In this document: in pieces, positions 46,216 to 57,695 of the stretch
How positions within the stretch are numbered: the stretch's first letter is position 1
Layout: each line of letters starts with the position of its first letter
Assembly (NCBI GenBank): GCA_038748065.1
Contig: JBCDJG010000008.1
Location: forward strand, 35,548-99,547
Direction: 5' to 3'
Source of the DNA: Pseudomonadota bacterium
GTDB taxonomy: Bacteria; Pseudomonadota; Gammaproteobacteria; Pseudomonadales; Halieaceae
Length of the DNA: 64,000 nt
Translations under genes and position numbers: made by a program
Notes under the pieces: generated by a model
Seen by the model: only the letters and a program-made list of their open reading frames with translations
Database searches by the model: none
What the model was told of the DNA's origin: nothing

Positions 46216-47409
46216 TTATCTACTCCAGCGGCGTCTGAGCGCGCGCAGACTCAGGCCGCAGAGGCCAGCGCTCAACACTAACATCGTCCACGCTTGGCCT
46301 AAAGGAATAGGTTCAATGCGGGCTTCGCCGGCTGAACCGGGTGGCGGGTCGATGTTGCGCACGAGGACTTCCGACATTTCCACCACGGTATAGACAATAT
46401 CGATGGGACTGCCATCGGCGAGCCTGCCGACAACCGTACCCCCATCCCCGCCCGGGTTAAGGGTATTGGTGAGCCCACTACCAACCACGGTCACAATTGA
46501 GCCCTCATCAAGGGACCACAACGCCCCCGGAGGAAACTCCCCACCGCTCACAGTAAATCCTGGGGCCTCACTGATTCGTAGGGCGACCGCGCCAACAGCC
46601 GGCTGGAAAATCCCACCACTGATCTCACCTTGACTCTCGTCGATGAAGAACAACGGAAAACGGCTAACGCCGCCACTCGCCGGTGACCCACCAATAAACG
46701 TACCGCCAGTGACCTGCACCGGACCATCAATGGCTACGGCTGTAGCACGGGTACCGTCGGCGTTCAGGCCACCACTGAAGGTGCCGCCGCTGATCTGCGT
46801 ACTGACAAGCGGACCACCCGCATCAAGCCCTACGGAACCGTCGGCAATACCACCGATGCCGTTACCGCCGCTAATTGAGCCCATCGTTACCAGGGTATTG
46901 CATCGGTCGGAGACAATGCCTGCACCCGCGCTGAAATCGATTTGCGCATTTCCCCCGACGATCACACCGCCATTGACCTCAAGCGAGCAGGCAGAAGCCA
47001 CGGGCCGTAGCCGAATCCCAACGCCACCAGTACCCAGGACATTGTTATTGTCACCACCTCGCACATTACCGTCGTTAACGATAACCGCAGTATCGACACC
47101 GCCGATACCCGCACCGGCCTCACCACCGCCAACACTATCATCACCGCCACGAATCGTGCCGCCATTGAGCAAAATGACACTATCGCCGCTGACACTCACC
47201 GCGGTGATCGCATTGGCCATGGCGGGGGCTTGCGCGGCACTCCCTGCCTGGAAATCAACCGTGGTGGCATTGGACACCAGCACATCAGCAAGTGGAGTCG
47301 TCACGGTATTGACCGCGCCGTTGTCAAACACCGTTTGCGCCTGTGCATTACTGACCCCAAGCAAACAAAGGGCGACGGCCAGCCTGCAGCAGAAAAAAGT
47401 GCGGTTCAC
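46216..47409 (-). CDS. Secreted glycine-rich beta-helix repeat protein with C-terminal IPLG / hydrophobic helix / Arg-rich sorting-type tag
   Basis: 397 aa with a signal peptide and repeated xxGGxhxGG coils (NGGTIRGGDD, NDGNVRGGDN, VNGGVIVGGN, ISGGTFSGG, VTGGTFIGG, ISGGIFQP, VSGGEFPPG). The tail is PIPLGQAWTMLVLSAGLCGLSLRALRRRWSR. The start overlaps the upstream stop by 4 nt. Confidence 0.7.
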   Translation of the reverse strand: MNRTFFCCRLAVALCLLGVSNAQAQTVFDNGAVNTVTTPLADVLVSNATTVDFQAGSAAQAPAMANAITAVSVSGDSVILLNGGTIRGGDDSVGGGEAGAGIGGVDTAVIVNDGNVRGGDNNNVLGTGGVGIRLRPVASACSLEVNGGVIVGGNAQIDFSAGAGIVSDRCNTLVTMGSISGGNGIGGIADGSVGLDAGGPLVSTQISGGTFSGGLNADGTRATAVAIDGPVQVTGGTFIGGSPASGGVSRFPLFFIDESQGEISGGIFQPAVGAVALRISEAPGFTVSGGEFPPGALWSLDEGSIVTVVGSGLTNTLNPGGDGGTVVGRLADGSPIDIVYTVVEMSEVLVRNIDPPPGSAGEARIEPIPLGQAWTMLVLSAGLCGLSLRALRRRWSR

Positions 47410-50400
47410 TGCCTCGAATCCCGTGTGCGAAGTGTATTAGCGCCAAGGCTCATCAAAAGCATAAGTAGCATCAACGTTACAGCTCCCCCAAGCGGAATGG
47501 ATTGCGGCAGGAAGAAGCGACTCAAATCCTCGTTCACGGTGAGGCGCAGCACGTCCTGCCCCCCTTCGTTAACCACCTCAAGCGACGCGGCATCAGGTGG
47601 CGCGCCGATGAAACGGAAGTTCATCCCACTGCCCGAAAGGCCACCGGGATCGGTGCGCAGCACGTCCAGGATCTGCCCCTCTGGGGCGGGATAATTGATC
47701 TGCACAATGACCTCGCCATTGATCGTCGCTGTATTGGCATCAATGGCCGCATAGCGCCCCGGCTGACCCAGGTTCTCGCGCGTGGCCCGCGTTGGTCCTT
47801 CGGCGACCAGCACAATGCGGCCATCCGGGCCAACCTGCAGGTCATCGGTACGAATATAGCTCGGATTCAGTGATGCCTCGGCATCCATCGGCAGGCTGGC
47901 GGGATTCTGCAGGCCAATCTCAAGCAGCGGCGTATCGAGGGCCGCGTTGGTGAGGCCCAGCCGGGCGGTGACCAGGCTATCGGCATTGGTGCCATCATCG
48001 GTATACAGCCCAACCACCACTGACTCGCTAACATCGGCGGTGGTGTCTTCAAGCAGCAGGCGGCCGTCGACTATTGCCACCGCATCATTGTCCTTGAGCT
48101 CCGCCTCGGCGATTTCAACACCCGCTGCGACAAGCGTGCTGCCTGTGATGCTGAGAAGCGCCGTCCCCCGGCCAATCGAAGTTTCCGAAACCTCAACCCG
48201 GCTTACTTTGATCTCATCAACTTCCATCTCGCTATCGGTAAAACTAGCGCGCCCAGTGCCGTCAGTCACACCGCCTTCGGTGTTATCGATTCGCATCAGA
48301 GACAAATCAACGGGCGCAAGAGCGCTGGATTCGATTCGCGAGCGGCTCACGGTCAGTTCCACGAGCGAAGGAAGGACTTGCGCACCTGCGGCTTGCGCTT
48401 CGCAGAGCCCAACCTGAAGTTGAACCGCACCTGAACCTAAGCCGTTGTTGAGAAACAGGGAGTCTTCGACTGTGACGTTGACCACGGCTGATGCCAATCC
48501 GTTCTCACCATCAACGTCCGCGTTAAACAGGTTAATCCCGTCTCCGAAGGTGACATGGCGCAGTTCGGCAGTCGCCGAGGCCTCCGCAGTAGTGTTGGAA
48601 CCAAATGCATCAGGGTCTCCAATTAGCAATTCAGTGTCGAGTGTTACACCAGTCAAACGGACAGTCGCTTGGCTCGATCCCCGCGAGTTCGCCGCGTTCA
48701 TGTTGGCGGACGCAATGACGATTTGGCCTCCGCCGCTGAGAACCGCGTCGTCGTCCACCACCAGCTCAGCAACGGCACTGGCAACCGCGCCCGTGTCAGC
48801 CTCCTCGATCAGAACATAGCCTACGCGAGTGAAATCTCCTGTATCGAACTCACCCCCGCTTACCGTCAGTTGGCCCTCAGCAGTCCCTGGGGAGTAGGCT
48901 GCTCCAATACTCGTGATCCCCGGGTTGGGAACCGGTGGAAGGGGTTCTGTTTCGGAGGAACCTGGAGAGCGGAACGTGGTATCGATCAAGGTGGCGCCGC
49001 CCACTGAGGCACCGCCCCCCGCATAACCTGGGCGCAAGACGCCGATCTGAAGGTTGGCTGTGGGCAGGATTTCAACGCCATCGGTCTGCAGACTGCCGCT
49101 GCCGCCATCCACGCCGATGTCAATTTGATAAGCGTTTAGCGGCTCAGGGGCCGACGCGCCACTCGCCTGGGCTTCGCCGCCATTGTTCACCAAAGCTGGC
49201 TCACCGCCAGAAGGTACTCGGTTACCACTCCAGTTGGCAGGGTTAAACCAGTCATCGCTACCACTATTGGTCCACTCGGCGGTTGATGGGGCACCGGTGA
49301 GTTCGAGAATGTACTTCTCCACGCCTGCATCGACTTCAAAACCCGTGGTCGCCGTGAACCCCGGGTTCAAGTTGCGTAACTCGACCGTGGCAAAATCCCC
49401 GCTCAAGCCATCAGCGCTGGCGCTGTTGATCAGCTCAAAACGTGCCGGGCCCTCGGGAATGAAGTCAAAGTCGACAACCAAGGTGCCATCCAGGGTGGCG
49501 CTGCCGACGTCGATGGCACCGTAGTCCCCACTGGCGTCAAACGATACGCCACCTCGCTTTGTCGAGCCCCCGTTGAGCACCACGGTGGCGCCGGGGCCGA
49601 GGTTCATCGTGTCGAACAGAGACAGCCAATGATCGTTGCGCATGAGCCCGCTGCCTACGCCGCTGCCGTTGCTAAAACCGATATTGATGGTACGGGCGCT
49701 CAGGCCCTCCGCCGTGAGAACTGTTCCGGTCGCATCGCCACTGCCGTTGCTGATGCCGATGTCGATCTGGTCAAAGCGGCCAAAAGAGGCCCGGCCTGAG
49801 CCGGATTGCCGGCTGAGATCAATCACCCCGACCGCAGAACCGCTACCATCGCTGACGCCAATCTGGGCGCTGCCGGTCGCGGCATCAGCACGTAGGAATG
49901 AGTCGCCTGTAAGCTCGCCATCGGCATGACCGGCGCCCGTGGCGACGCCGACGGACAGACTGCGGATATCAACGGAGGACTCCAGCTCGGATACGCGGGC
50001 GGTGGCCTGACCATCCCCACGGCTCACCCCCACCTCCAAGCGATCCAGCCTATCAATATCAAGTGTCGGCACCGCAACGGTCGCATCGGCCTGCCCGGTG
50101 CTCTCAGCGACCCCAAACTGTGCAATGGAAAACCTGGGCAACACTAGTCTCAAGTCTGCAGACTGAACGTTACCGTCGATCATAACGCGCCCGTCAGCAT
50201 CGCCAGCAGCGTTAGAGACCCCCACCCGAAGCGGCGTGCCAGCAACACCTAAATCCAGAATGCTCGCGTCTGTATCGAAGCGCAGCACACCCAGCGAAGC
50301 TGCGGTGCCAGAGTTGGTCACGCCAACGTTGACACCCTCTGTGGCAAGCAAGTCCCGGCTGAAGAAATCGGCAAACAGGACAGCTCCCTCGCCACCATCC

Positions 50401-50681
50401 ACCCCGACAAGTAGGTTGCGCACCGTGACATCAACGGCATTGGCACCAAAAACCGCCGTGCCGCCGTTATTAATCGTGGCGTCCATGCCGGCTGAAGGCA
50501 GCGCGTTAGGTGTCCAATTTAGTGGCGCGAACCAGTCGCCTTCGCCGGGGTTGTTCCATTCCTGCGCGCCGGCCGATGCCGCGGCCAGTGCAGTGAGCAG
50601 CAGTGTGCAAGCACGTTTTGTAATCAGTGTGCGTTTATTTGAGCTTAGTCCAAGTGAGAGAGCGTTCTGAAGAAGAGTCAC
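47406..50681 (-). CDS. Large secreted two-module beta-helix repeat protein with the same C-terminal IPLG-type tag
   Basis: 1091 aa with a GTG start and a signal peptide. The module head is duplicated (EWNNPGEGDWFAPLNWTPNALP.. and EWTNSGSDDWFNPANWSGNRVP..). About 8 periodic (V/I)G(V/I)SNGSGxAxG coils are present. The tail is SIPLGGAVTLMLLMLLMSLGANTLRTRDSRQ. Confidence 0.75.
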   Translation of the reverse strand: MTLLQNALSLGLSSNKRTLITKRACTLLLTALAAASAGAQEWNNPGEGDWFAPLNWTPNALPSAGMDATINNGGTAVFGANAVDVTVRNLLVGVDGGEGAVLFADFFSRDLLATEGVNVGVTNSGTAASLGVLRFDTDASILDLGVAGTPLRVGVSNAAGDADGRVMIDGNVQSADLRLVLPRFSIAQFGVAESTGQADATVAVPTLDIDRLDRLEVGVSRGDGQATARVSELESSVDIRSLSVGVATGAGHADGELTGDSFLRADAATGSAQIGVSDGSGSAVGVIDLSRQSGSGRASFGRFDQIDIGISNGSGDATGTVLTAEGLSARTINIGFSNGSGVGSGLMRNDHWLSLFDTMNLGPGATVVLNGGSTKRGGVSFDASGDYGAIDVGSATLDGTLVVDFDFIPEGPARFELINSASADGLSGDFATVELRNLNPGFTATTGFEVDAGVEKYILELTGAPSTAEWTNSGSDDWFNPANWSGNRVPSGGEPALVNNGGEAQASGASAPEPLNAYQIDIGVDGGSGSLQTDGVEILPTANLQIGVLRPGYAGGGASVGGATLIDTTFRSPGSSETEPLPPVPNPGITSIGAAYSPGTAEGQLTVSGGEFDTGDFTRVGYVLIEEADTGAVASAVAELVVDDDAVLSGGGQIVIASANMNAANSRGSSQATVRLTGVTLDTELLIGDPDAFGSNTTAEASATAELRHVTFGDGINLFNADVDGENGLASAVVNVTVEDSLFLNNGLGSGAVQLQVGLCEAQAAGAQVLPSLVELTVSRSRIESSALAPVDLSLMRIDNTEGGVTDGTGRASFTDSEMEVDEIKVSRVEVSETSIGRGTALLSITGSTLVAAGVEIAEAELKDNDAVAIVDGRLLLEDTTADVSESVVVGLYTDDGTNADSLVTARLGLTNAALDTPLLEIGLQNPASLPMDAEASLNPSYIRTDDLQVGPDGRIVLVAEGPTRATRENLGQPGRYAAIDANTATINGEVIVQINYPAPEGQILDVLRTDPGGLSGSGMNFRFIGAPPDAASLEVVNEGGQDVLRLTVNEDLSRFFLPQSIPLGGAVTLMLLMLLMSLGANTLRTRDSRQ

Positions 50682-50833: not shown

Positions 50834-51826
50834 CTACTGAGCGACGATCTCAACGCGGCGATTGAGTGCTCGCCCTTCTTCGCTGTCGTTAGACGCCAGG
50901 GGGGCAGCAGGACCGATGCCAACCGCTCTCAAACGATCTACAGCCACCGCGTGTTCGTTCACCAGCGCATCAACCACCGAGGCTGCGCGCTCGCCCGATA
51001 AGCCCAGGTTGTAGTCATAGGCACCCTGACTGTCGGTATGCCCAACCACCAGCACCTTCAGCTCCGGGCTGTTAACCAGGGCCTTGGCTATTTCTGATAC
51101 GGCGTCCGTCGAGTCGGGGGTGAGGGTGGAACTGTCGAACTCGAACTGTATGCCATAGAGCGATACCGACCCGGTTCTCTGTATCTCATCGAGCATCTCA
51201 TCTGCGGAGACGAAGGTCAGTGTCGGCTCGAAGTCTTCGATCTCCAGAACCTCAAGATGAATCATCGGCTGATTTCTAATCGCCGTCATTCCGGTCACTA
51301 TGTAGGTGCTCAGCATCGAGACATGGTAGAGGGAATCTCCCTTGATGATCGTGCCGTAAAGGTAGACGGGGTCACGATAGTCACTGGGCAGAATGTACAG
51401 CGACAGGCTATTTCTGAAGGTGACAGGAATACGGTTGCTTTCTTCCCAGATGACGCCACGGGCAAGCTTGGTGTGGCAGTCTTTGCGCGAGCAAGACCAG
51501 ATCGGCTCAAACTCACCAAACTCGGCAAAGGCCAGCTCATAGTTGCGCAGGATCTGCAGTGTTGTCTGGTCAGACTGCCCCATATAGATAATGCGCGTGC
51601 GCTTTCCTTCGGGCTGGGAAAGCTTGGGCTTGGCGCCCTCCATCTCAGTGACAAATAGCCCTTGGTCGAACTGTTTGTAGTCATAGCCAACAATGTAGGT
51701 ACCAGTCACGCGAGGCATCTCCGCGTAATCGCTACTACCGGGCATATCGGCATCCTGAGCAGTGGCATAGCCCGATACAACAAACGCCAGAACAAGCGTG
51801 GCTCTTACGGTCTGTATGATATTCAT
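50834..51826 (-). CDS. OmpA-family peptidoglycan-binding protein with N-terminal DUF4892-like domain
   Basis: 330 aa with a signal peptide and a C-terminal OmpA_C motif (LVVGHTDSQGAYDYNLGLSGERAASV ... NRRVEIV). Confidence 0.85.
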   Translation of the reverse strand: MNIIQTVRATLVLAFVVSGYATAQDADMPGSSDYAEMPRVTGTYIVGYDYKQFDQGLFVTEMEGAKPKLSQPEGKRTRIIYMGQSDQTTLQILRNYELAFAEFGEFEPIWSCSRKDCHTKLARGVIWEESNRIPVTFRNSLSLYILPSDYRDPVYLYGTIIKGDSLYHVSMLSTYIVTGMTAIRNQPMIHLEVLEIEDFEPTLTFVSADEMLDEIQRTGSVSLYGIQFEFDSSTLTPDSTDAVSEIAKALVNSPELKVLVVGHTDSQGAYDYNLGLSGERAASVVDALVNEHAVAVDRLRAVGIGPAAPLASNDSEEGRALNRRVEIVAQ

Positions 51827-51882
51827 ACTGTTATCAGTCTCCTCTTCGGTATTTCCAAGCTCGTTTAGCTTGCATGCTGGAA

Positions 51883-54800
51883 CTAGTTTCTCGAAAGCAG
51901 CTGGTTTCTGAAGTTGGGGAAGTAGCGCTCCACCAATTCCAGATCCATATAGTTGGAGAGCCAGGTCTTTGTATTGGCGTCGTAGTACACGTAGTTCTTA
52001 TGTTCGAGCATCTTTTGCATGAAGAAATCGGCGTCAAGCCACCTGCCCCAGCGATCTGGGTCGATCAAGAGACTCTCCCGCCTCAAACTATTCACACCAT
52101 GATTCCCGGTGCTCATCTGGTCAATGATCCTCCCCAGTCCCAACAGGTCTTCGGTTGGAGAGCCAAAATCATGAATTCGATCCAGATCTAGCAGGCCCGC
52201 CTCCCAATACAGCCCCCTGCGAAAGAAATACACATTGCCCAAATGGACGTCCTCCCAGATCAGGTTTGCCTCCGCAAGCTTCTTGAATAACCTGAGCATG
52301 GCGTGCTGGTATGCACGAGGCAGTCTCTTCATCTGAGGATCCAGTCCGGCGATCTGAAATCCCCTCATCACGTAACCACTCGCGCTTGTTTCCGAGCGCA
52401 CGCGCCGATACTTGATGGTCCTGGCGCCATCAGGGAGTCGCTCCTGTAGAGCGAAGACCAGCTCATTTCCCTTAGTGGATCCAAACTTCCTGAGCGTTTG
52501 GCGACCTTTTCCCATAACAGCGAGGTGCGGGATATCTGCCGCGGCCAGCTTCTGGGAGGTTTCAATCGTCTGCTCGACATCCTCAATGGCCTGGTCGGGG
52601 CCCTTTCTGGCTTTATACAGTTTCGCAATGACATCGCGCCGCCCCTGAATCTCATGGACCACCGCGGCAGAACCTTCACCAAGACGAGCGCCAAGCGCCA
52701 GTGATTCTTGTTGACCGCCGGCGGCATTCCTGGCGTCGAGCTGTAGGCCGTCCCCGCTTTCTCCGGGGAACCACAAGGGGCGCTCTGTGGTGATGACTCT
52801 CTCATCATCCAATACCGTACCCATCTCCTTGAAGCGGCTAACCTCCTCATCCCACCACCTCGCGCTATCCAGGTTCCGAAGCTGAATTTCATCCTGCAGG
52901 GCCTGCCCCACTCGCTGCGCCCTCGTCAGCAGACCCTCGGGCAGAAAACGATTGAACGCTGCCTGATCTGCTTCATCGAAGATACTCATGACCGCGATCA
53001 AGCGATCGTGCTCCTCCCGAGTGAGCAGTCGAAATGCATCCAGCCCGCCCGCTTCCACAGTGTCCAGCAGTTGGTTGAGAACCCTGGCGTCATCAATGCT
53101 CTGAATCTGCGCGGGCGTCACTAGCGCCTGTGGAGGCACCGGGATGATGGGCGCAGCCCCGTCGCTGACGGCGGGAAACATGTCCTTTATCGGCGAGCTA
53201 AAATAGGTCAGATTCTTCGCGCTCAACCTGAAGGCCTGGCCAAAGGCGATCGCCTCCGCCGAGAAGCCGATGACACCGGCTGAGATTTCTGCGACCAGCA
53301 TCCAGCCGGGCTTCTGCTTGGCAACAGCATCGTCGAATCGTTCATGCGACAACACGCCCAGCGTGCCCCGCGCAAATCTCACCTCATCTCTCTGGGCGAT
53401 GTATTGACCCCACTTGCGATAGACAGAATCGCTTAGGGCCATACTCTCGCCGATCAGCGCCGCCGCGCGAAGCCCTACAACACCCGAGTTGGCGGCATAG
53501 GGTGTCGTTCTGATCACAAAGGCGACAGCGGGCCCAGAAGCGACAACGGAAAGCCCTGTAATCACAGCGATGACTACATCCTTCTCGGCGTCCTGGAGAT
53601 CATCTGCAAACTGCAGCTCGCTGAGCTTCTGCTCGATGCTGTTCATATGATTCCGGCCCAAATCTTCCGGTACCCACCAGGTGTCATTTCCGATTGTCTC
53701 GAGCCGTACAAGATCAGGAATGATTGGCTTTTTCAGGGGCTCGACATAGGAGCCGATGATCTCCATTAACTCGCGCAGGTCTTCAACATCCGTGCCGGCT
53801 AGCTTCTCTAGAGCATCCCTGACATGACTTTCCAGGGACCTGGCGGCGGCCTGCGCCAGCGTGCTTTTGTCCTGCTCGTATCCCCCAAGGCTTTGCTGTA
53901 CAAACACCTCGGCACTGGCTGCGCCCAGGGTGCTCGCTTCGACGCCGTCGATTTCGATCGGCAGTGAAAAGATGGCTGCGTCTCTGAATCTCAGCGCCGG
54001 GCCAACCGTCTCCTCCCACCATCGATTGGCGGCATCCGGATCTGAGAGCTCACGGCTCTGAGCTTCAAGACCTGCAAGTTGATCCTCCAGCTGATTCATC
54101 AACTCGTCGCGCAGCAAGAGCATCGACGCGTAATCACCCAGGGTCACCATCACGTCTGAATTATTCCAGCTACCGCCCGCATCAATCTCACCGACCAGGC
54201 GCGTGGTGGGCGTGCTCCGATCAACCCGAATCTGCGCCATCCGTCCTGCCTCGGAGAAGGCGTTCCACCAGGAATGATCGACGTCTTCAGGTGCCCTGGT
54301 CACTGCGTAGGCTCTAACGGGCGCAACGATAGGGGTGGACACAGGCAGTGAAACAAAAAGCTCGTATCCGGCGGGTAGATTCAGCGTTTTGTTCGTATCT
54401 GCATTCATTTTCCCAATTACAGCAGCGGGCGAGCGATAGACTTCGCTGCGGAACACAATCCCTTCTGCTCCAGCCACTCGCTTCAGATTCACGCTGGAGC
54501 TGCCCTCTACACTCAGTCGTTCGGCTTGCTCCGCAACCGGGTCCCAGCGGGCTATGCTGACGTCCAAAACGTCTTGATTGATGTCGTGGTCCAGTTCAAC
54601 CTCGAAGGCGAAGTGATCGCTTTCGAAGATCGTATTGAGTGGAATAAACGACCCATCAGGTAACGCGCGCACCACGCGCAAATCGGCATAGGCCGCCGGC
54701 CGATTCGGGGAACGGCCATATACCCAGGTAACGACTTGACCTGCCAGCTTGAACTCATACACGCCGGGCATGGCGCCCTTTCTTGGACTGGCTTCGATTT

Positions 54801-55833
54801 GTACGAGATCAAATTCATTTACCAGGTCAAATGCCGTCTCAACATCGACCCCTCTGGATCGCAGCTTTCCGAAATAGACGTCACTTAATGACTCTCCCCT
54901 CCGCTGCGGCAGCTTGAAAGGGTTTGCCGGTGTGAACGTCGTCAGGATCTCATAGTCCATCCAGCCCGCTTCGAACTCCAGTTCCGGATAACGTGTTAGC
55001 TTGGCGATGCCCTCGCCCATGACATAAAGGATTCTCGGGTCCCTATGCATATTGCTGCGAACTTCCTCGGGCAGGTTGATCACCGCCCCCAAGACCGAGA
55101 TGATCCTCGAGGTACGCCTTCCTTCCACGTCGGGGTAGACGGTGATAACAGGCTCCGAATCCGGCCATTCAATGGCAAGCGGTTCAAACCACGGCGTCAT
55201 ATCCAGCCGGGCCTGCTCGCCACTGACCGGGTCAATCTCGAGTATCTTTGCACTTTTAAGAAAATCATCGAGCTGAGACGGGGAACCGGGCCCGTCTTTG
55301 ACATCGAGCACACCATCCGCGAGCTCTGCCCAGGCTTCCCATGCAAACTCCCGCTCCTCTTGCTTGGCCACGTCCAGGAAGGTGAAAGCGTGAGCCGCAA
55401 GTTCCTCCCGTTGCTGAATGAGCTTGCTCGCGATGTCCCTATAACCCGGCGCTCCCGGCACCTCATCCCGCAGCAAAGCCAGGTAACGTCTGGCGGTGTC
55501 CAACTCAAGCTCCCAGTGCAGCTCGATGACCTCCATGGCAATCTCTTCCTGCTCGGGGGTGACCAGTTGTCCCGCCCCCGGTGCGTCATTTAAGGATGCC
55601 CTGATCGCTGCCAGCTTGCGGTTAGCCTGCTCAAGCGGCCTCATGACTTCCTGGCCTTTCAAGCGACCCTCGAAGTCCCGCTCCCAAATCGATTCCGACC
55701 TCTCCAGATAGGCATCGAACACGTCGACCAGAGTCGGCAGCAGCTTCAAGAGCTCGGCATTGGTAGACTGGGCTGCTGCGGCAGCCGCCAGCCAGAAAAG
55801 CGGTAGAACGAGAACGGCGCGGAAAACGCTCAC
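51883..55833 (-). CDS. 1316-aa envelope protein: signal peptide, unrecognised domain of about 730 aa, TM segments, C-terminal protein-kinase-like (APH/choline/Kdo-kinase type) domain
   Basis: GTG start with the signal MSVFRAVLVLPLFWLAAAAAAQS. The hydrophobic segments DVVIAVITGLSVVASGPAVAFVI and GWMLVAEISAGVIGFSAEAIAFG map to nt 53239-53580. The C-terminal motifs are LGEGSAAVV, VIAKLYK, WEDVHLGNVYF and LLDLDRI. Confidence 0.65.
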   Translation of the reverse strand: MSVFRAVLVLPLFWLAAAAAAQSTNAELLKLLPTLVDVFDAYLERSESIWERDFEGRLKGQEVMRPLEQANRKLAAIRASLNDAPGAGQLVTPEQEEIAMEVIELHWELELDTARRYLALLRDEVPGAPGYRDIASKLIQQREELAAHAFTFLDVAKQEEREFAWEAWAELADGVLDVKDGPGSPSQLDDFLKSAKILEIDPVSGEQARLDMTPWFEPLAIEWPDSEPVITVYPDVEGRRTSRIISVLGAVINLPEEVRSNMHRDPRILYVMGEGIAKLTRYPELEFEAGWMDYEILTTFTPANPFKLPQRRGESLSDVYFGKLRSRGVDVETAFDLVNEFDLVQIEASPRKGAMPGVYEFKLAGQVVTWVYGRSPNRPAAYADLRVVRALPDGSFIPLNTIFESDHFAFEVELDHDINQDVLDVSIARWDPVAEQAERLSVEGSSSVNLKRVAGAEGIVFRSEVYRSPAAVIGKMNADTNKTLNLPAGYELFVSLPVSTPIVAPVRAYAVTRAPEDVDHSWWNAFSEAGRMAQIRVDRSTPTTRLVGEIDAGGSWNNSDVMVTLGDYASMLLLRDELMNQLEDQLAGLEAQSRELSDPDAANRWWEETVGPALRFRDAAIFSLPIEIDGVEASTLGAASAEVFVQQSLGGYEQDKSTLAQAAARSLESHVRDALEKLAGTDVEDLRELMEIIGSYVEPLKKPIIPDLVRLETIGNDTWWVPEDLGRNHMNSIEQKLSELQFADDLQDAEKDVVIAVITGLSVVASGPAVAFVIRTTPYAANSGVVGLRAAALIGESMALSDSVYRKWGQYIAQRDEVRFARGTLGVLSHERFDDAVAKQKPGWMLVAEISAGVIGFSAEAIAFGQAFRLSAKNLTYFSSPIKDMFPAVSDGAAPIIPVPPQALVTPAQIQSIDDARVLNQLLDTVEAGGLDAFRLLTREEHDRLIAVMSIFDEADQAAFNRFLPEGLLTRAQRVGQALQDEIQLRNLDSARWWDEEVSRFKEMGTVLDDERVITTERPLWFPGESGDGLQLDARNAAGGQQESLALGARLGEGSAAVVHEIQGRRDVIAKLYKARKGPDQAIEDVEQTIETSQKLAAADIPHLAVMGKGRQTLRKFGSTKGNELVFALQERLPDGARTIKYRRVRSETSASGYVMRGFQIAGLDPQMKRLPRAYQHAMLRLFKKLAEANLIWEDVHLGNVYFFRRGLYWEAGLLDLDRIHDFGSPTEDLLGLGRIIDQMSTGNHGVNSLRRESLLIDPDRWGRWLDADFFMQKMLEHKNYVYYDANTKTWLSNYMDLELVERYFPNFRNQLLSRN

Positions 55834-55840
55834 AGCCCGT

Positions 55841-57508
55841 TCACTCGCTGTCTCCTGCGTTGCCTAGACCCCAGCGCTTCTCCAGGTCGTAGCGCCAGGC
55901 GATGTCAGACATCATTCTGTTTTTTTGTTCCGCACTCCTGGGACTGGACAGAATGTTATCTCTGAGGACCGCCGTCTCATCGATGAACGCACGCATTCGT
56001 TCGGCCATGACGCTCGCGGGGCTGCCAAAGGGGCCATCGGGCGCCTTCAGCATAGACACCGACAGATACACGTTTACCTCCAGTTGATCCCACCCGGAGG
56101 ACGGAACGTCTGCAGGGCTGCCCGCCGGATACATGAGCGTCATCTCTCGAATCAGCCTATCCGCGCCCTTCTCCTGGCTGCTGGCGCTCCCCCAGTACGC
56201 GGCGTTCATCAAGCCAACCTGGCATTCGGCCCAGGCCATACTGTCCCTACCGCCACTGGGAAAGCGCCACAGATAGTCTGACAACTCTTCAAGGAAAGTC
56301 GATTCGGCCTCGCTGGCTGCGTCAAACAGCTCGGCCACTAGCTGCTGAGTGTTCTCAGTGAGGTCCACGCGATCCAGCGAGCGAGGGTCCGGCCTTTCTG
56401 TTCCTACGCAATAGGCATTAGCCTGTGCAGGCACGTAAGCCAGCTTCGAATAAACGACCGGATCGGTCAGGTCGAGCGCCCGGAGTAGGTCAATTCTGAC
56501 ATCCGCCACGTCAGAAGGATCAACCGAGGATTGAGGTTTGCCCAAGTCAAACCGTCCTTCGGGCCTGCCTTCAGGATAACGCGCCACGGCCGCCTCGAGT
56601 TCGCTCAAGTAGCGCGCTATCGCTGACGGTTCGTCCGCGGCCACCAGCAATTGCCACGCCTTGCGCACATCGGGTGGATCGTAAAGATAGCCAGCTCCCG
56701 GCGCTGCGGGCGCGATGAGGGGGCTCAGTTTTGTAGCGTTCCGCGCTTTTCGGCTTCGTTCAGACTCTGCAGCCTGCTCGCCCAACCATTCAAGGTTTGC
56801 CTGCGTCCAGGCACGCAGCAAGGCCAGTGCTGCTCGATCGAAGCCTGTTTCAAGAATACGGTTGCGCCGATTCATGGCAACGGTCCAAACCAGCTGGTTC
56901 AGGGCAATATCAAAGTTCCCAAAGTGGCCGTATTCCGACCAGGTACCGCCATGGCCTTCAAAGGCCTGTAATTCAACATCATCGTGCCGCTGATTCAACA
57001 ACCATCGAAGCCCAGCTCCCGCATACAGCAGGCCGGCGGTTTCCGCATCACCGTCTAGGATGGCATTCATCACCATCTGAGCATGCCGTCGACCACCAAT
57101 GCGAACACCCTCTGGCGGCATACCGAACATGATCGCCAGGTCACGCAATGTGTCAGGCTCGTTGACAATAGTGGCGGGGAAGTGGATGCCCAGGCTGACC
57201 GGCGGGGAAACCTCCCCTGAGGCCAGGTCATAGAACACCAGCTTGTACTCCTTGATGCCTCTCCCGGGTCGATCTGGCCACTGCTCTACGATAACTGTTG
57301 CAGAGGGGCCCAGTGGATAGTCTTTAAAAGTCTGCGGGTCGATTTGTTCCTGCAGCTGCTTGACCTGTTCTGGTCCCGCGTATGGCAGGCTCAACAAATC
57401 TGCAAAAACCGGCGTCACAATGAAAGAAAAAAAACTCGCTAGCGCCGCACATGGCCGGCGTCTGGCGGGTCGGTAGTCCATTGAAAAGAAGAGAATTTTC
57501 TTCGCCAT
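55841..57508 (-). CDS. Secreted 555-aa protein of unknown function
   Basis: The ATG at 57508 (MAKKILFF..) is preceded by GGGGGAAAG and followed by a signal-like segment ALASFFSFIVTPVFA. Its stop lies 7 nt before the start of the 1316-aa gene. The ORF track starts at 57592. Confidence 0.65.
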   Translation of the reverse strand: MAKKILFFSMDYRPARRRPCAALASFFSFIVTPVFADLLSLPYAGPEQVKQLQEQIDPQTFKDYPLGPSATVIVEQWPDRPGRGIKEYKLVFYDLASGEVSPPVSLGIHFPATIVNEPDTLRDLAIMFGMPPEGVRIGGRRHAQMVMNAILDGDAETAGLLYAGAGLRWLLNQRHDDVELQAFEGHGGTWSEYGHFGNFDIALNQLVWTVAMNRRNRILETGFDRAALALLRAWTQANLEWLGEQAAESERSRKARNATKLSPLIAPAAPGAGYLYDPPDVRKAWQLLVAADEPSAIARYLSELEAAVARYPEGRPEGRFDLGKPQSSVDPSDVADVRIDLLRALDLTDPVVYSKLAYVPAQANAYCVGTERPDPRSLDRVDLTENTQQLVAELFDAASEAESTFLEELSDYLWRFPSGGRDSMAWAECQVGLMNAAYWGSASSQEKGADRLIREMTLMYPAGSPADVPSSGWDQLEVNVYLSVSMLKAPDGPFGSPASVMAERMRAFIDETAVLRDNILSSPRSAEQKNRMMSDIAWRYDLEKRWGLGNAGDSE

Positions 57509-57695
57509 CTTTCCCCCAAATCCCCCTGATCTGAGTTGCCGCAAATGGACGCTGTGCAACCAATATAGGTCATGTTGGATACAGCTGCACACGTGCCGCT
57601 AACTGGCAAGCTTTCCCCCACAGACGCCGCATGCCGTTGGCAATCCCTGTATCATCCGGCAAGCTACCGCCTGATCGACCAACGGAGAACGCCGC

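What the first reader, a model, noticed from the sequence alone, without database searches (positions are those of the whole stretch)
51886..52701. Protein-kinase-like catalytic motifs at the C-terminus of an exported 1316-aa protein
The last 272 aa contain four motifs in the correct order and spacing. LGEGSAAVV is a Gly-rich loop. VIAKLYK is a VAIK-type Lys about 15 aa later. IWEDVHLGNVYF is a D-x-H-x-G-N catalytic loop, as in aminoglycoside phosphotransferase, choline kinase and Kdo kinase. LLDLDRI, 20 aa later, is a DFG-equivalent metal-binding Asp. Upstream (nt 53239-53580) lie two clear hydrophobic helices and one weak one. After signal-peptide cleavage the topology is therefore ambiguous. 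Three TM helices would make this a cytoplasmic receptor-type kinase, while two would put the kinase-like domain in the periplasm, which would be unusual.
Basis: partly seen in the sequence, partly recalled or inferred. Interest (0 to 1): 0.7.

Follow-up and report, generated by a model that had tools for sequence, protein, structure and literature searches.

The report
Uncatalogued kinase domain on exported protein
The last 272 residues of this 1316-residue signal-peptide protein are a real, catalytically complete protein-kinase-fold domain from a rare family that no database describes, and the protein is probably a membrane sensor kinase working with a partner protein encoded just upstream.

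Summary
The ORF at 51883..55833 (-) encodes 1316 aa, and all four motifs lie at the stated positions.

The domain has 188 relatives among 1.84 billion cluster representatives. K1071, D1195, N1200 and D1216 are intact in 97 of 98 near-complete domains. An AlphaFold model built on 64 homologs (pLDDT 88) matches only protein kinases in the PDB, including Sky1p, RIO1/2, OspG, Bud32, NleH and HopBF1. A sequence profile hits NleH1 at E 1.4e-7.

No Pfam, NCBIfam or PADLOC model covers the domain or the 1000 residues before it. I read it as an undescribed family of the kinase-like superfamily.

A roughly 540-aa signal-peptide protein is encoded immediately upstream in all seven ortholog loci examined.

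Topology is not settled. Only the first hydrophobic helix (752-775) is consistently hydrophobic across 86 relatives. The third is often plainly amphipathic.

That favours one membrane span and a cytoplasmic kinase, the classic sensor-kinase layout (about 0.5). An exported toxin or effector kinase remains possible (about 0.2). Substrate and activity are untested.

The parts
51883..55833 (-). Gene for the 1316-aa protein. It is identical to NCBI MAG protein AAGI11_05060, 'hypothetical protein', Pseudomonadota bacterium.
   Evidence: ORF list; 100% match to P0001.
55771..55833 (-). N-terminal signal peptide or signal anchor, residues 1-21: MSVFRAVLVLPLFWLAAAAAA|QS.
   Evidence: Kyte-Doolittle 2.05. 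The six closest homologs also have hydrophobic, signal-peptide-like N-termini. Most full-length relatives have such a segment. Cleavage was not predicted with a dedicated tool.
53581..55770 (-). N-terminal region, residues 22-751, predicted to lie outside the cytoplasm. It has no recognisable domain.
   Evidence: No Pfam, NCBIfam or PDB match, even with a 7-sequence profile. Residues ~340-870 are conserved in many distant relatives.
53509..53580 (-). H1, residues 752-775: DVVIAVITGLSVVASGPAVAFVIR. This is the only consistently hydrophobic internal helix and the candidate single membrane span.
   Evidence: Kyte-Doolittle 2.13 here. Median 1.73 over 86 relatives, with 59 at or above 1.6.
53230..53487 (-). 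H2 (783-803, amphipathic), a conserved loop (804-842, motif FARGxxGVLxHER) and H3 (843-868, Gly/Ala-rich with invariant E849 and G856).
   Evidence: Alignment A4. H3 median hydrophobicity is 1.32, with only 20 of 86 at or above 1.6. Lys+Arg is highest just after H3.
52702..53229 (-). Residues 869-1044: a Pro-rich linker of variable length, then a segment leading into the kinase domain.
   Evidence: The linker is absent or shortened in P0005-P0007. No database match.
51886..52701 (-). Protein-kinase-like domain, residues 1045-1316. This is the finding.
   Evidence: AlphaFold2 on 64 homologs: pLDDT 88.4, pTM 0.88, with the element order beta1-3, alphaC, beta4-5, alphaE, catalytic loop, beta7-8, DLD. 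Foldseek PDB top hits are all kinases.
52657..52692 (-). Gly-rich loop, residues 1048-1059: GARLGEGSAAVV.
   Evidence: G1052 in 59 of 64 and G1054 in 62 of 64. It aligns with the NleH1 loop GNVIGKGGNAVVYE.
52621..52623 (-). K1071, the beta3 (VAIK-type) lysine.
   Evidence: Present in 64 of 64 and 98 of 98. It aligns with the Lys of NleH1 'VLKMF'.
52225..52257 (-). Catalytic loop, residues 1193-1203: WEDVHLGNVYF. D1195 is the predicted catalytic base and N1200 the metal-binding Asn.
   Evidence: D1195 and N1200 are each in 98 of 98; H1197 in 76 of 98. It aligns with the NleH1 catalytic loop 'VDTTETNVLY'.
52174..52194 (-). DFG-equivalent, residues 1214-1220: LLDLDRI. D1216 is the metal-binding Asp.
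   Evidence: D1216 in 97 of 98 and D1218 in 92 of 98.
51997..52089 (-). Family-specific C-lobe signature: S1249 and the helix FFMQKMLEHK (1270-1279, with K1274 and E1277).
   Evidence: S1249 in 64 of 64, K1274 in 62 of 64, E1277 in 63 of 64. Role unknown.
55841..57592 (-). Conserved upstream partner gene. The listed ORF is 583 aa. The likely start is M29 or M38, with a signal peptide ending ...TPVFA|DLL, so the mature protein is about 519 aa.
   Evidence: A homolog sits immediately upstream in all 7 ortholog loci, with BLASTP E values from 1e-18 to 1e-138. The conserved mature start 'DVLVL' follows an AxA-type site. No Pfam, PDB or PADLOC match. A GGAG lies upstream of the GTG start, and 7 nt separate the partner's stop codon from that start.
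50834..51826 (-). Downstream OmpA-family protein of 330 aa, with an N-terminal signal-peptide-like segment and a C-terminal peptidoglycan-binding domain. It may be an accessory part.
   Evidence: Pfam OmpA, E 4.6e-20. A 55%-identical ortholog holds the same position next to P0004, but it is absent from the other five loci.

Best explanation
Residues 1045-1316 are a catalytically competent domain of the protein-kinase-like fold. The domain belongs to a rare family that is not in Pfam or NCBIfam. Its nearest relatives are minimal or atypical protein kinases (NleH/OspG, RIO, Bud32).

Inferred catalytic roles, by analogy with those kinases:
- The G1052-x-G1054 loop and K1071 hold the ATP phosphates.
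- D1195 is the catalytic base.
- N1200 and D1216 bind Mg2+.

I propose that the whole protein is a sensor-type membrane kinase with this layout:
1. The N-terminal signal peptide (or signal anchor) puts about 730 residues into the periplasm.
2. Helix H1 (752-775) is the single consistent membrane span.
3. H2, the conserved loop and H3 form a membrane-proximal cytoplasmic module.
4. A variable linker follows.
5. The kinase sits in the cytoplasm, where ATP is available.

The upstream partner also carries a signal peptide. It is probably translationally coupled to the kinase gene. I infer that it binds the periplasmic domain as a co-sensor or regulator, as LuxP does for LuxQ or QseG for QseE.

Shown here: the fold, the conservation of catalytic residues, the family's rarity, the partner synteny and the hydrophobicity pattern. 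Inferred: topology, a protein (rather than small-molecule) substrate, partner binding and any signalling role.
For: Fold and catalytic residues:
- The profile of 64 domains hits PDB kinases: NleH1 E 1.4e-7, SboH 1.7e-6, NleH2 1.8e-6, Aurora A about 1e-5.
- The AlphaFold2 model has pLDDT 88.4 and pTM 0.88.
- Foldseek on the PDB gives 96 hits at E<=1e-3, probability 1.0. The top hits are Sky1p, Rio1, OspG (TM 0.62 on the target), Bud32, RioK1, Rio2, NleH and HopBF1.
- The viral structure library also returns Ser/Thr kinases, or polyproteins and unnamed proteins, as its 50 best hits.
- K, D, N and D are invariant.

Family:
- 188 relatives at E<=1e-3 among 1.84 billion representatives.
- Most carry the domain at the C-terminus of 1200-3600-aa proteins.
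- Many share the region equivalent to residues 340-870.

Topology:
- Signal-peptide-like N-termini occur in most full-length members.
- H1 is hydrophobic family-wide, while H3 is not.
- Lys+Arg peaks after H3, on the kinase side.
- An 18-residue deletion in P0006 and P0007 argues against H1 and H2 both being spans.
- An invariant ATP-site set implies a compartment that contains ATP.

Partner and context:
- The partner sits upstream in 7 of 7 loci, in most of them with a 4-nt gene overlap or a gap under 30 nt.
- Its signal peptide and mature N-terminus are conserved.
- No secretion-system or immunity-like genes occur in any of the loci examined.
- Relative P0158 joins the same hydrophobic module to a different C-terminal domain behind an N-terminal signal anchor, as modular sensors do.
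Against: - No dedicated topology predictor was available.
- A crude sum on the Hessa scale gives H1 +2.7 kcal/mol. Internal segments of relatives give +0.2 to +10 (mostly +2 to +7), which is marginal for translocon insertion.
- About 20 full-length relatives, including orthologs P0005 and P0006, have no internal segment at or above 1.6.
- Few positive charges directly follow H1: 0.64 Lys+Arg per 15 residues, against 1.84 before it.
- The alphaC glutamate is not invariant (E or D at position 1084 in 36 of 64).
- No cytoplasmic substrate or response regulator is encoded nearby.
- The best sequence matches are secreted effector kinases.
- The same N-terminal module with a different C-terminus (P0158) would also fit a toxin-delivery scaffold.
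Confidence: 0.5

Rival explanations
1. The protein is an exported toxin or effector kinase. Under this view the whole protein leaves the cytoplasm through Sec. The H1-H2-H3 region is then a membrane-insertion hairpin, like the hydrophobic helices of the diphtheria, CNF or PMT translocation domains. That hairpin would carry the C-terminal kinase into a target cell, where ATP is available. The partner would act as a chaperone, secretion helper or immunity factor.
For: - The signal peptide is combined with only marginal internal hydrophobic helices.
- About 20 relatives have no internal segment of TM grade.
- H3 is a Gly/Ala-rich helix with conserved acidic residues.
- The domain always sits at the extreme C-terminus of very large proteins, up to 3585 aa.
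- The best sequence matches are the type III effectors NleH and OspG.
- P0158 carries the same module with a different C-terminal domain.
Against: - None of the loci examined encodes a secretion system, a TpsB-like transporter or a small downstream immunity gene.
- The N-terminal module and the kinase co-occur across nearly the whole family rather than being shuffled.
- The partner is about 540 aa and appears Ala/Leu/Arg/Glu-rich. It matches no ShlB, POTRA or immunity family.
- No Pfam toxin-translocation model matches.
- The hosts are free-living Planctomycetota and a Pseudomonadota MAG.
Confidence: 0.22
2. The domain is a periplasmic or otherwise extracytoplasmic kinase-fold enzyme. In this reading H1 and H3 both span the membrane. 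The domain then faces the periplasm and modifies an envelope component, possibly by non-kinase chemistry or with a donor other than ATP.
For: - In the window protein itself H1 (2.13) and H3 (1.63) are the two strongest internal hydrophobic segments.
- Several relatives have both at TM grade, for example P0011 at 2.04 and 1.93.
- The neighbouring proteins (partner and OmpA-like) are envelope proteins.
- Kinase folds can carry out AMPylation or glutamylation. This rests on general knowledge and on the abstract of PMC10870513.
Against: - H3 is clearly amphipathic in many relatives, for example TEWYEIGLQILITYIQGRL at 0.27. A conserved two-span topology is therefore unlikely.
- Positive charge is highest after H3, which the positive-inside rule places in the cytoplasm.
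- The periplasm lacks ATP, yet the canonical ATP/Mg2+ residues are invariant.
Confidence: 0.1
3. The domain is a small-molecule, lipid or glycan kinase rather than a protein kinase. This is what the reader's comparison with aminoglycoside, choline and Kdo kinases implies.
For: - The Brenner-type motif D-x-x-x-x-N and the D-x-D motif are shared with those families.
- Weak APH hits occur in 5 of 64 members (best E 5.6e-4). There are also 5 YrbL and 2 Kdo hits.
- WbdD, a polysaccharide kinase, appears among the Foldseek hits at rank 37.
Against: - The top sequence and structure matches are protein kinases.
- The window domain itself gives no APH, choline-kinase or Kdo hit even at E<=1.
Confidence: 0.15
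4. The domain is a pseudokinase or structural scaffold with no catalytic function.
For: The alphaC glutamate is not invariant. The domain lacks a recognisable APE or activation segment.
Against: K1071, D1195, N1200 and D1216 are intact in 97 of 98 diverse domains. That is the signature of selection on catalysis.
Confidence: 0.03

Closest known systems
NleH1/NleH2, OspG and SboH: minimal type III effector kinases (PDB 4lrj, 4lrk, 4bvu, 4o96)
   Same: - These are the best profile-to-sequence matches in the PDB, at E 1.4e-7 to 1.8e-6.
- They are among the best structural matches. OspG has a TM-score of 0.62 on the target.
- The Gly loop, the beta3 Lys and the alphaE/catalytic-loop D...N all align.
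   Different: - Those are 170-aa minimal kinases injected by type III secretion.
- This domain is about 270 aa. It has an extra beta-hairpin after the hinge and about 100 residues of family-specific C-lobe (S1249, FMxKMLE).
- It sits behind a Sec signal peptide and 1000 residues of unknown sequence.
- No type III secretion genes lie nearby.
- Sequence identity is 12-18%.
RIO1/RIO2 and Bud32/PRPK atypical kinases
   Same: Foldseek E 2.9e-5 to 2e-4. Like them, this domain lacks a canonical activation segment.
   Different: No RIO or Bud32 HMM match was found. Those proteins are cytoplasmic ribosome-biogenesis or tRNA-modification factors, with no signal peptide and no membrane module.
Hanks-type bacterial Ser/Thr kinases (Pfam PF00069, for example PknB)
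   Same: The bilobal fold and catalytic residues are shared. The profile matches the Aurora A N-lobe at about 1e-5.
   Different: - The Pkinase HMM is not matched above threshold. Only 2 of 64 members score, at E about 0.02.
- The orientation is reversed. PknB-type receptors have an N-terminal cytoplasmic kinase and a C-terminal external sensor. Here the kinase is C-terminal, behind a signal peptide.
Periplasm-sensing histidine kinases with accessory proteins (LuxQ/LuxP, QseE/QseG)
   Same: - The proposed layout is the same: an N-terminal signal or anchor, a large periplasmic domain, a membrane span and a cytoplasmic kinase.
- A co-encoded exported accessory protein is also shared. The QseG-QseE analogy rests on the abstract of PMC12691602 listed in the search results.
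   Different: - The output here is a protein-kinase-like domain, not a HisKA/HATPase_c pair.
- No response regulator is encoded nearby.
- The topology is predicted only.
   Same: The general D-x-x-x-x-N and downstream Asp motifs are shared. A few members give sub-threshold hits.
   Different: The window domain does not match these HMMs. Protein kinases are closer by both sequence profile and structure.

Membership tests
Protein-kinase-like (PKL) superfamily | Gly-rich nucleotide loop between beta1 and beta2 | tested here: met
   G1052 in 59 of 64 and G1054 in 62 of 64. It lies between E12-18 and E22-27 of the model.
Protein-kinase-like (PKL) superfamily | Invariant beta3 lysine | tested here: met
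   K1071 in 98 of 98. It aligns with the NleH1 VLK lysine.
Protein-kinase-like (PKL) superfamily | Catalytic-loop Asp and Asn (D-x-x-x-x-N), followed by a metal-binding Asp | tested here: met
   D1195 and N1200 in 98 of 98; D1216 in 97 of 98.
Protein-kinase-like (PKL) superfamily | Bilobal kinase fold | tested here: met
   AlphaFold2 pLDDT 88.4. Foldseek gives probability 1.0 to 96 PDB chains at E<=1e-3, and the 50 best listed are all kinases of the protein-kinase-like fold. TM-score normalised by the query is only about 0.4.
Protein-kinase-like (PKL) superfamily | AlphaC glutamate paired with the beta3 lysine | tested here: inconclusive
   No invariant acidic column in alphaC. Position 1084 is E or D in 36 of 64. 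The window protein has E1084, D1085 and E1087.
Protein-kinase-like (PKL) superfamily | ATP binding and phosphotransfer | not testable with these tools
   Needs biochemistry.
Hanks-type protein kinase (Pfam PF00069) | Match to the family HMM above the gathering score | tested here: not met
   No hit for the window domain at E<=1. Only 2 of 64 members score, at E about 0.02.
NleH/OspG effector kinases | Minimal kinase of about 170 aa delivered by type III secretion | tested here: not met
   The domain is about 270 aa and lies behind a Sec signal peptide. No type III secretion genes occur in the window or related loci. The similarity is partial: two stretches, E 1.4e-7.
APH/choline kinase (PF01636) and Kdo/WaaP (PF06293) | Match to the family HMM above the gathering score | tested here: not met
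   The window domain gives no hit. APH scores in 5 of 64 (best E 5.6e-4) and Kdo in 2 of 64 (E 0.017), all below threshold.
RIO / Bud32 atypical kinases | Family HMM match; RIO-specific N-terminal helix and flexible loop | tested here: not met
   Structural similarity only, with Foldseek E 2.9e-5. No Pfam RIO1 or Bud32-type hit. The RIO-specific elements were not examined.
Transmembrane sensor kinase architecture | N-terminal signal or anchor, periplasmic domain, an odd number of further spans, and a cytoplasmic catalytic domain | tested here: inconclusive
   The N-terminus is signal-peptide-like, and H1 is consistently hydrophobic while H3 is not. However, H1 is marginal on a crude Hessa-scale sum, and no dedicated predictor or experiment was available.
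Polymorphic or AB-type exported toxin | A linked secretion or immunity gene, and a constant delivery module with variable C-terminal toxin domains | tested here: inconclusive
   No secretion or immunity genes occur in the loci examined. One relative (P0158) has the hydrophobic module with a different C-terminus. The rest keep the kinase.

The most novel reading that the evidence does not exclude
The protein may be a Sec-exported kinase that works outside the producing cell's cytoplasm, as a new kind of AB-type toxin. In this reading, the Gly/Ala-rich helices with conserved acidic residues (752-868) would insert into a target membrane. They would deliver the C-terminal kinase into a prey or competitor cell. 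The co-translated partner would act as a chaperone or receptor-binding subunit. The evidence does not exclude this. The internal helices are only marginally hydrophobic, and many relatives lack any TM-grade segment. The closest sequence relatives are injected effector kinases. One relative carries a different C-terminal domain on the same module.
Probability: 0.2. Interest if true: 0.8.

Novelty: new variant of a known kind. Interest (0 to 1): 0.55.

Why it matters
The kinase-like fold is among the most studied enzyme scaffolds, yet this family is absent from Pfam, NCBIfam and PADLOC. It has 188 representatives among 1.84 billion clusters. Those traced to genomes come from Planctomycetota MAGs and one Pseudomonadota MAG.

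If the sensor model holds, these bacteria have a receptor kinase with the polarity of animal and plant receptor kinases. The sensor is outside and N-terminal, and the kinase is inside and C-terminal. That is the reverse of PknB-type bacterial receptors. An obligatory periplasmic partner is also encoded with it.

If the exported model holds, it would be a new toxin type.

Either way, the work yields a defined domain boundary, four residues to mutate and a conserved two-gene operon. It also yields about 1000 residues and a 540-residue partner with no known fold. These make the question testable.

Tried and rejected
- Single-sequence searches of the C-terminal 272 aa against Pfam, NCBIfam and PDB sequences found nothing significant.
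- AlphaFold2 on a two-sequence alignment gave an unusable model, pLDDT 43.5. It was replaced by the 64-sequence run.
- The word-indexed protein search found only the protein itself and one Planctomycetota homolog. It found nothing with the 64-domain profile.
With the 7-ortholog alignment it found only two Planctomycetota MAG loci among GTDB species representatives. It found none in the JGI metagenome contigs.
- Profiles of the N-terminal 1000 residues and of the partner gave no credible PDB or Pfam match. I regard the histidinol-dehydrogenase (E 0.0015) and seryl-tRNA-synthetase (E 0.04) stretches as chance.
- Seven giant relatives (1898-3585 aa) have no Pfam domain.
- PADLOC gave no defence-system match except the generic OmpA/MotB domain of the downstream gene.
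- Two-partner secretion was considered. A roughly 580-aa exported protein next to a large exoprotein resembles that system. I rejected it because there is no ShlB, POTRA or TPS-domain match, and the partner appears Ala/Leu/Arg/Glu-rich rather than barrel-like.
- A three-span model (H1+H2+H3) is disfavoured, because P0006 and P0007 lack 18 residues across the H1/H2 junction.
- The 840-aa gene upstream of P0158 is not related to the partner.
- Promoter and terminator scans were no better than shuffled controls.
- Literature searches found PKL surveys (KINtaro, PMC10870513; an oral-microbiome preprint, 10.64898/2026.09.18.752743; the Legionella pan-kinome, PMC9758233). In what I read of these papers, nothing described this architecture. 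I could not query the KINtaro database itself.
Full report
**1. The observation**

The window contains an ORF at 51883..55833 on the minus strand. It starts with GTG and encodes 1316 aa.
- LGEGSAAVV is residues 1051-1059.
- VIAKLYK is residues 1068-1074.
- IWEDVHLGNVYF is residues 1192-1203.
- LLDLDRI is residues 1214-1220.

The N-terminus, MSVFRAVLVLPLFWLAAAAAA|QS, looks like a signal peptide. H1 (752-775) scores 2.13 on the Kyte-Doolittle scale. H3 (843-868) scores 1.63. A weak amphipathic H2 lies between them. The protein is identical to a 'hypothetical protein' of a Pseudomonadota MAG.

**2. Is it a kinase fold?**

Single-sequence searches were silent. Pfam and PDB sequence searches gave nothing. 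NCBIfam gave only a 0.12 E-value touch on SrkA. The word-indexed search found one homolog, a 1340-aa Planctomycetota protein at 35% identity. That homolog already conserves all the proposed catalytic residues.

An exhaustive HMMER search used the two-sequence C-terminal profile against 1.84 billion cluster representatives. It found 188 proteins at E<=1e-3 and 79 at E<=1e-10. From these I built a 64-sequence domain alignment at 22-50% identity to the window protein.
- Invariant: K1071, D1195, N1200, D1216 and S1249.
- At least 90%: G1052, G1054, D1218, K1274 and E1277.
- Over 98 near-complete domains, the K-D-N-D set is intact in 97.
H1197 is present in about 80%.

The profile of this alignment matches PDB kinases. 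NleH1 scores E 1.4e-7, SboH 1.7e-6 and NleH2 1.8e-6. Aurora A and many other Hanks-type kinases follow at about 1e-5. The Gly loop with the beta3 Lys and the alphaE/catalytic loop align to their NleH counterparts.

AlphaFold2 on a two-sequence alignment failed, with pLDDT 43.5. On the 64-sequence alignment it gave pLDDT 88.4 and pTM 0.88. The element order is canonical: beta1-beta2-beta3, alphaC, beta4-beta5, an inserted hairpin, alphaE, the catalytic loop, beta7-beta8 and then the DLD motif.

Foldseek against the PDB returned 96 hits at E<=1e-3. The 50 best are all kinases of the protein-kinase-like fold: Sky1p, Rio1, OspG, Bud32, RioK1, Rio2, NleH, HopBF1, PknA and WbdD. Nearly all named hits in the viral structure library are also Ser/Thr kinases. 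TM-scores are modest: about 0.4 on the query and 0.62 on OspG. The domain is therefore a divergent member of the fold.

**3. Which family?**

None that is catalogued. Each of the 64 members was scanned against Pfam. Only sub-threshold hits appeared: APH in 5, YrbL in 5, Kdo in 2 and Pkinase in 2.

By sequence profile and by structure, the nearest relatives are minimal or atypical protein kinases.

The domain is larger than NleH or OspG (about 270 aa against 170 aa). It also has its own C-lobe signature: S1249 and the helix F-M-x-K-M-L-E.

**4. The rest of the protein and its neighbours**

The N-terminal 1000 residues match nothing in Pfam, NCBIfam, PADLOC or PDB, even as a seven-sequence profile. 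Residues ~340-870, which include the hydrophobic helices, are conserved in many distant relatives. The whole protein is therefore a family, not only the kinase domain. Giant relatives of 1900-3600 aa are equally dark.

I recovered seven loci of the close subfamily: the window, L001, L002/L003, L004, L010, L011 and L012.
- In every locus a gene of about 530-583 aa lies immediately upstream. In most it overlaps by 4 nt or is separated by fewer than 30 nt. All are homologous, with BLASTP E values from 1e-18 to 1e-138.
- In the window, 7 nt separate the partner's stop codon from the GTG start, and a GGAG lies upstream.
- The partner has a signal-peptide-like N-terminus. Its mature start, 'DVLVL', is conserved just after an AxA-type site. 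It has no database match.
- The downstream OmpA-family gene is shared only with the closest ortholog locus, at 55% identity.
- A Hanks-type kinase gene lies within 5 kb upstream in three of the seven loci.
- No secretion-system, TpsB-like or immunity-like genes occur in any locus. The window flanks encode ordinary functions: a TonB receptor, an AraC regulator, a CN-hydrolase and a radical SAM enzyme.
- Among GTDB species representatives only two Planctomycetota MAGs carry a relative.

**5. Topology**

I located the H1-H3 region in 86 relatives with an iterated local HMM.
- The H1 equivalent is consistently hydrophobic. The median best 19-residue Kyte-Doolittle score is 1.73, and 59 of 86 are at or above 1.6.
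- The H3 equivalent has a median of 1.32, with only 20 of 86 at or above 1.6.
- H3 ranges from TM-grade (LVIAGLGSLVGLGGDFMIL, 1.93) to plainly amphipathic (TEWYEIGLQILITYIQGRL, 0.27).

A segment that variable cannot be a constitutive span in a family with conserved topology. Orthologs P0006 and P0007 lack 18 residues across the H1/H2 junction. H1 and H2 therefore cannot both be spans. Lys+Arg density is highest just after H3, on the kinase side.

Together with the invariant ATP/Mg2+ residues, these points favour one span (H1) and a cytoplasmic kinase. That gives a signal peptide or anchor, a periplasmic domain of about 730 aa, a span and a cytoplasmic output. This is the standard bacterial sensor layout.

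Against this, several points remain.
- A crude Hessa-scale sum for H1 is +2.7 kcal/mol. For relatives' internal segments it is +0.2 to +10, mostly +2 to +7.
- About 20 full-length relatives, including two orthologs, have no internal segment at or above 1.6.
- Few positive charges directly follow H1.

I had no dedicated topology predictor and no structure-prediction quota left for the N-terminal part.

**6. One relative with a different output**

A profile of the N-terminal region found P0158, a 1336-aa protein. It has the H1-H3 module (E 1.9e-28) behind an N-terminal signal anchor. Its C-terminal 390 residues are not a kinase and match nothing.

Its overlapping upstream gene is unrelated to the partner. 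This modularity fits a sensor scaffold with exchangeable outputs. It also fits a delivery scaffold with exchangeable toxins.

**7. Conclusion and likelihoods**

That the finding is a genuine, catalytically complete kinase-like domain of an undescribed family is close to certain (about 0.95). The remaining likelihoods are:
- sensor-type membrane kinase with a periplasmic partner: about 0.5;
- exported toxin or effector kinase: about 0.2;
- truly periplasmic kinase-fold enzyme: about 0.1;
- pseudokinase: very unlikely.

Whether the substrate is a protein or a small molecule is open, and the neighbours in fold space lean towards protein.

I rate this a new variant of a known kind. The superfamily is familiar. 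The family, its C-terminal placement behind a signal peptide, the dark 1000-residue N-terminal region and the obligatory partner are not described in the databases and papers I could search.

Noticed in passing
window 47406..50681 (-): A 1091-aa ORF lies two genes downstream. It has a signal-peptide-like N-terminus and a duplicated motif: 'WNNPGEGDWFAPLNWTPNALPSAG' near residue 42 and 'WTNSGSDDWFNPANWSGNRVPSGG' near residue 470. It also has long Gly/Asp/Ser/Thr-rich stretches. The C-terminus reads '...IPLGGAVTLMLLMLLMSLGANTLRTRDSRQ'. That resembles a PEP-CTERM or IPTL-CTERM type sorting tail. No Pfam or NCBIfam model matches. It is absent from the related loci.
   Followed up: partly
window 50834..51826 (-); L002:14074-15066: The OmpA-family protein downstream has an N-terminal domain of about 220 residues with no Pfam match. 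The whole protein is 55% identical to the gene in the same position next to ortholog P0004. It could be a third component in one lineage.
   Followed up: partly
L002:5853-8139 and L003:366-2652: In the P0004 locus an AAA+ ATPase (420 aa) and a TPR protein (340 aa) lie directly upstream of the partner gene, on the same strand. No equivalent pair lies next to the window operon.
   Followed up: no
L001:6736-8016, L004:4946-7648, L010:1202-3997: A Hanks-type Ser/Thr kinase gene lies within 5 kb upstream of the partner/kinase-like pair in three of seven ortholog loci. In L010 it is fused to an FGE-sulfatase domain. This may be chance in kinase-rich Planctomycetota, or it may be a functional link.
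   Followed up: partly
P0158 (L013:8001-12011): This relative has the same hydrophobic H1-H3 module but a different, unrecognisable C-terminal domain of about 390 residues in place of the kinase. It follows an overlapping 840-aa gene unrelated to the partner.
   Followed up: partly
P0012 (2633 aa), P0053 (2023 aa), P0103 (3585 aa): Some giant relatives give several separate matches to the kinase-domain profile. P0012 has 2-3 stretches spanning residues 1324-2616, and P0053 has 5-6. This suggests tandem or fragmented kinase-like domains.
   Followed up: no
window 51874..52191 (+), 52368..52892 (-), 54552..54818 (-), 55045..55593 (+), 55197..55589 (-): Several ORFs of 88-182 aa overlap the 1316-aa gene in other frames or on the other strand. 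Given the conserved long ORF and about 57% GC, I regard them as spurious.
   Followed up: no
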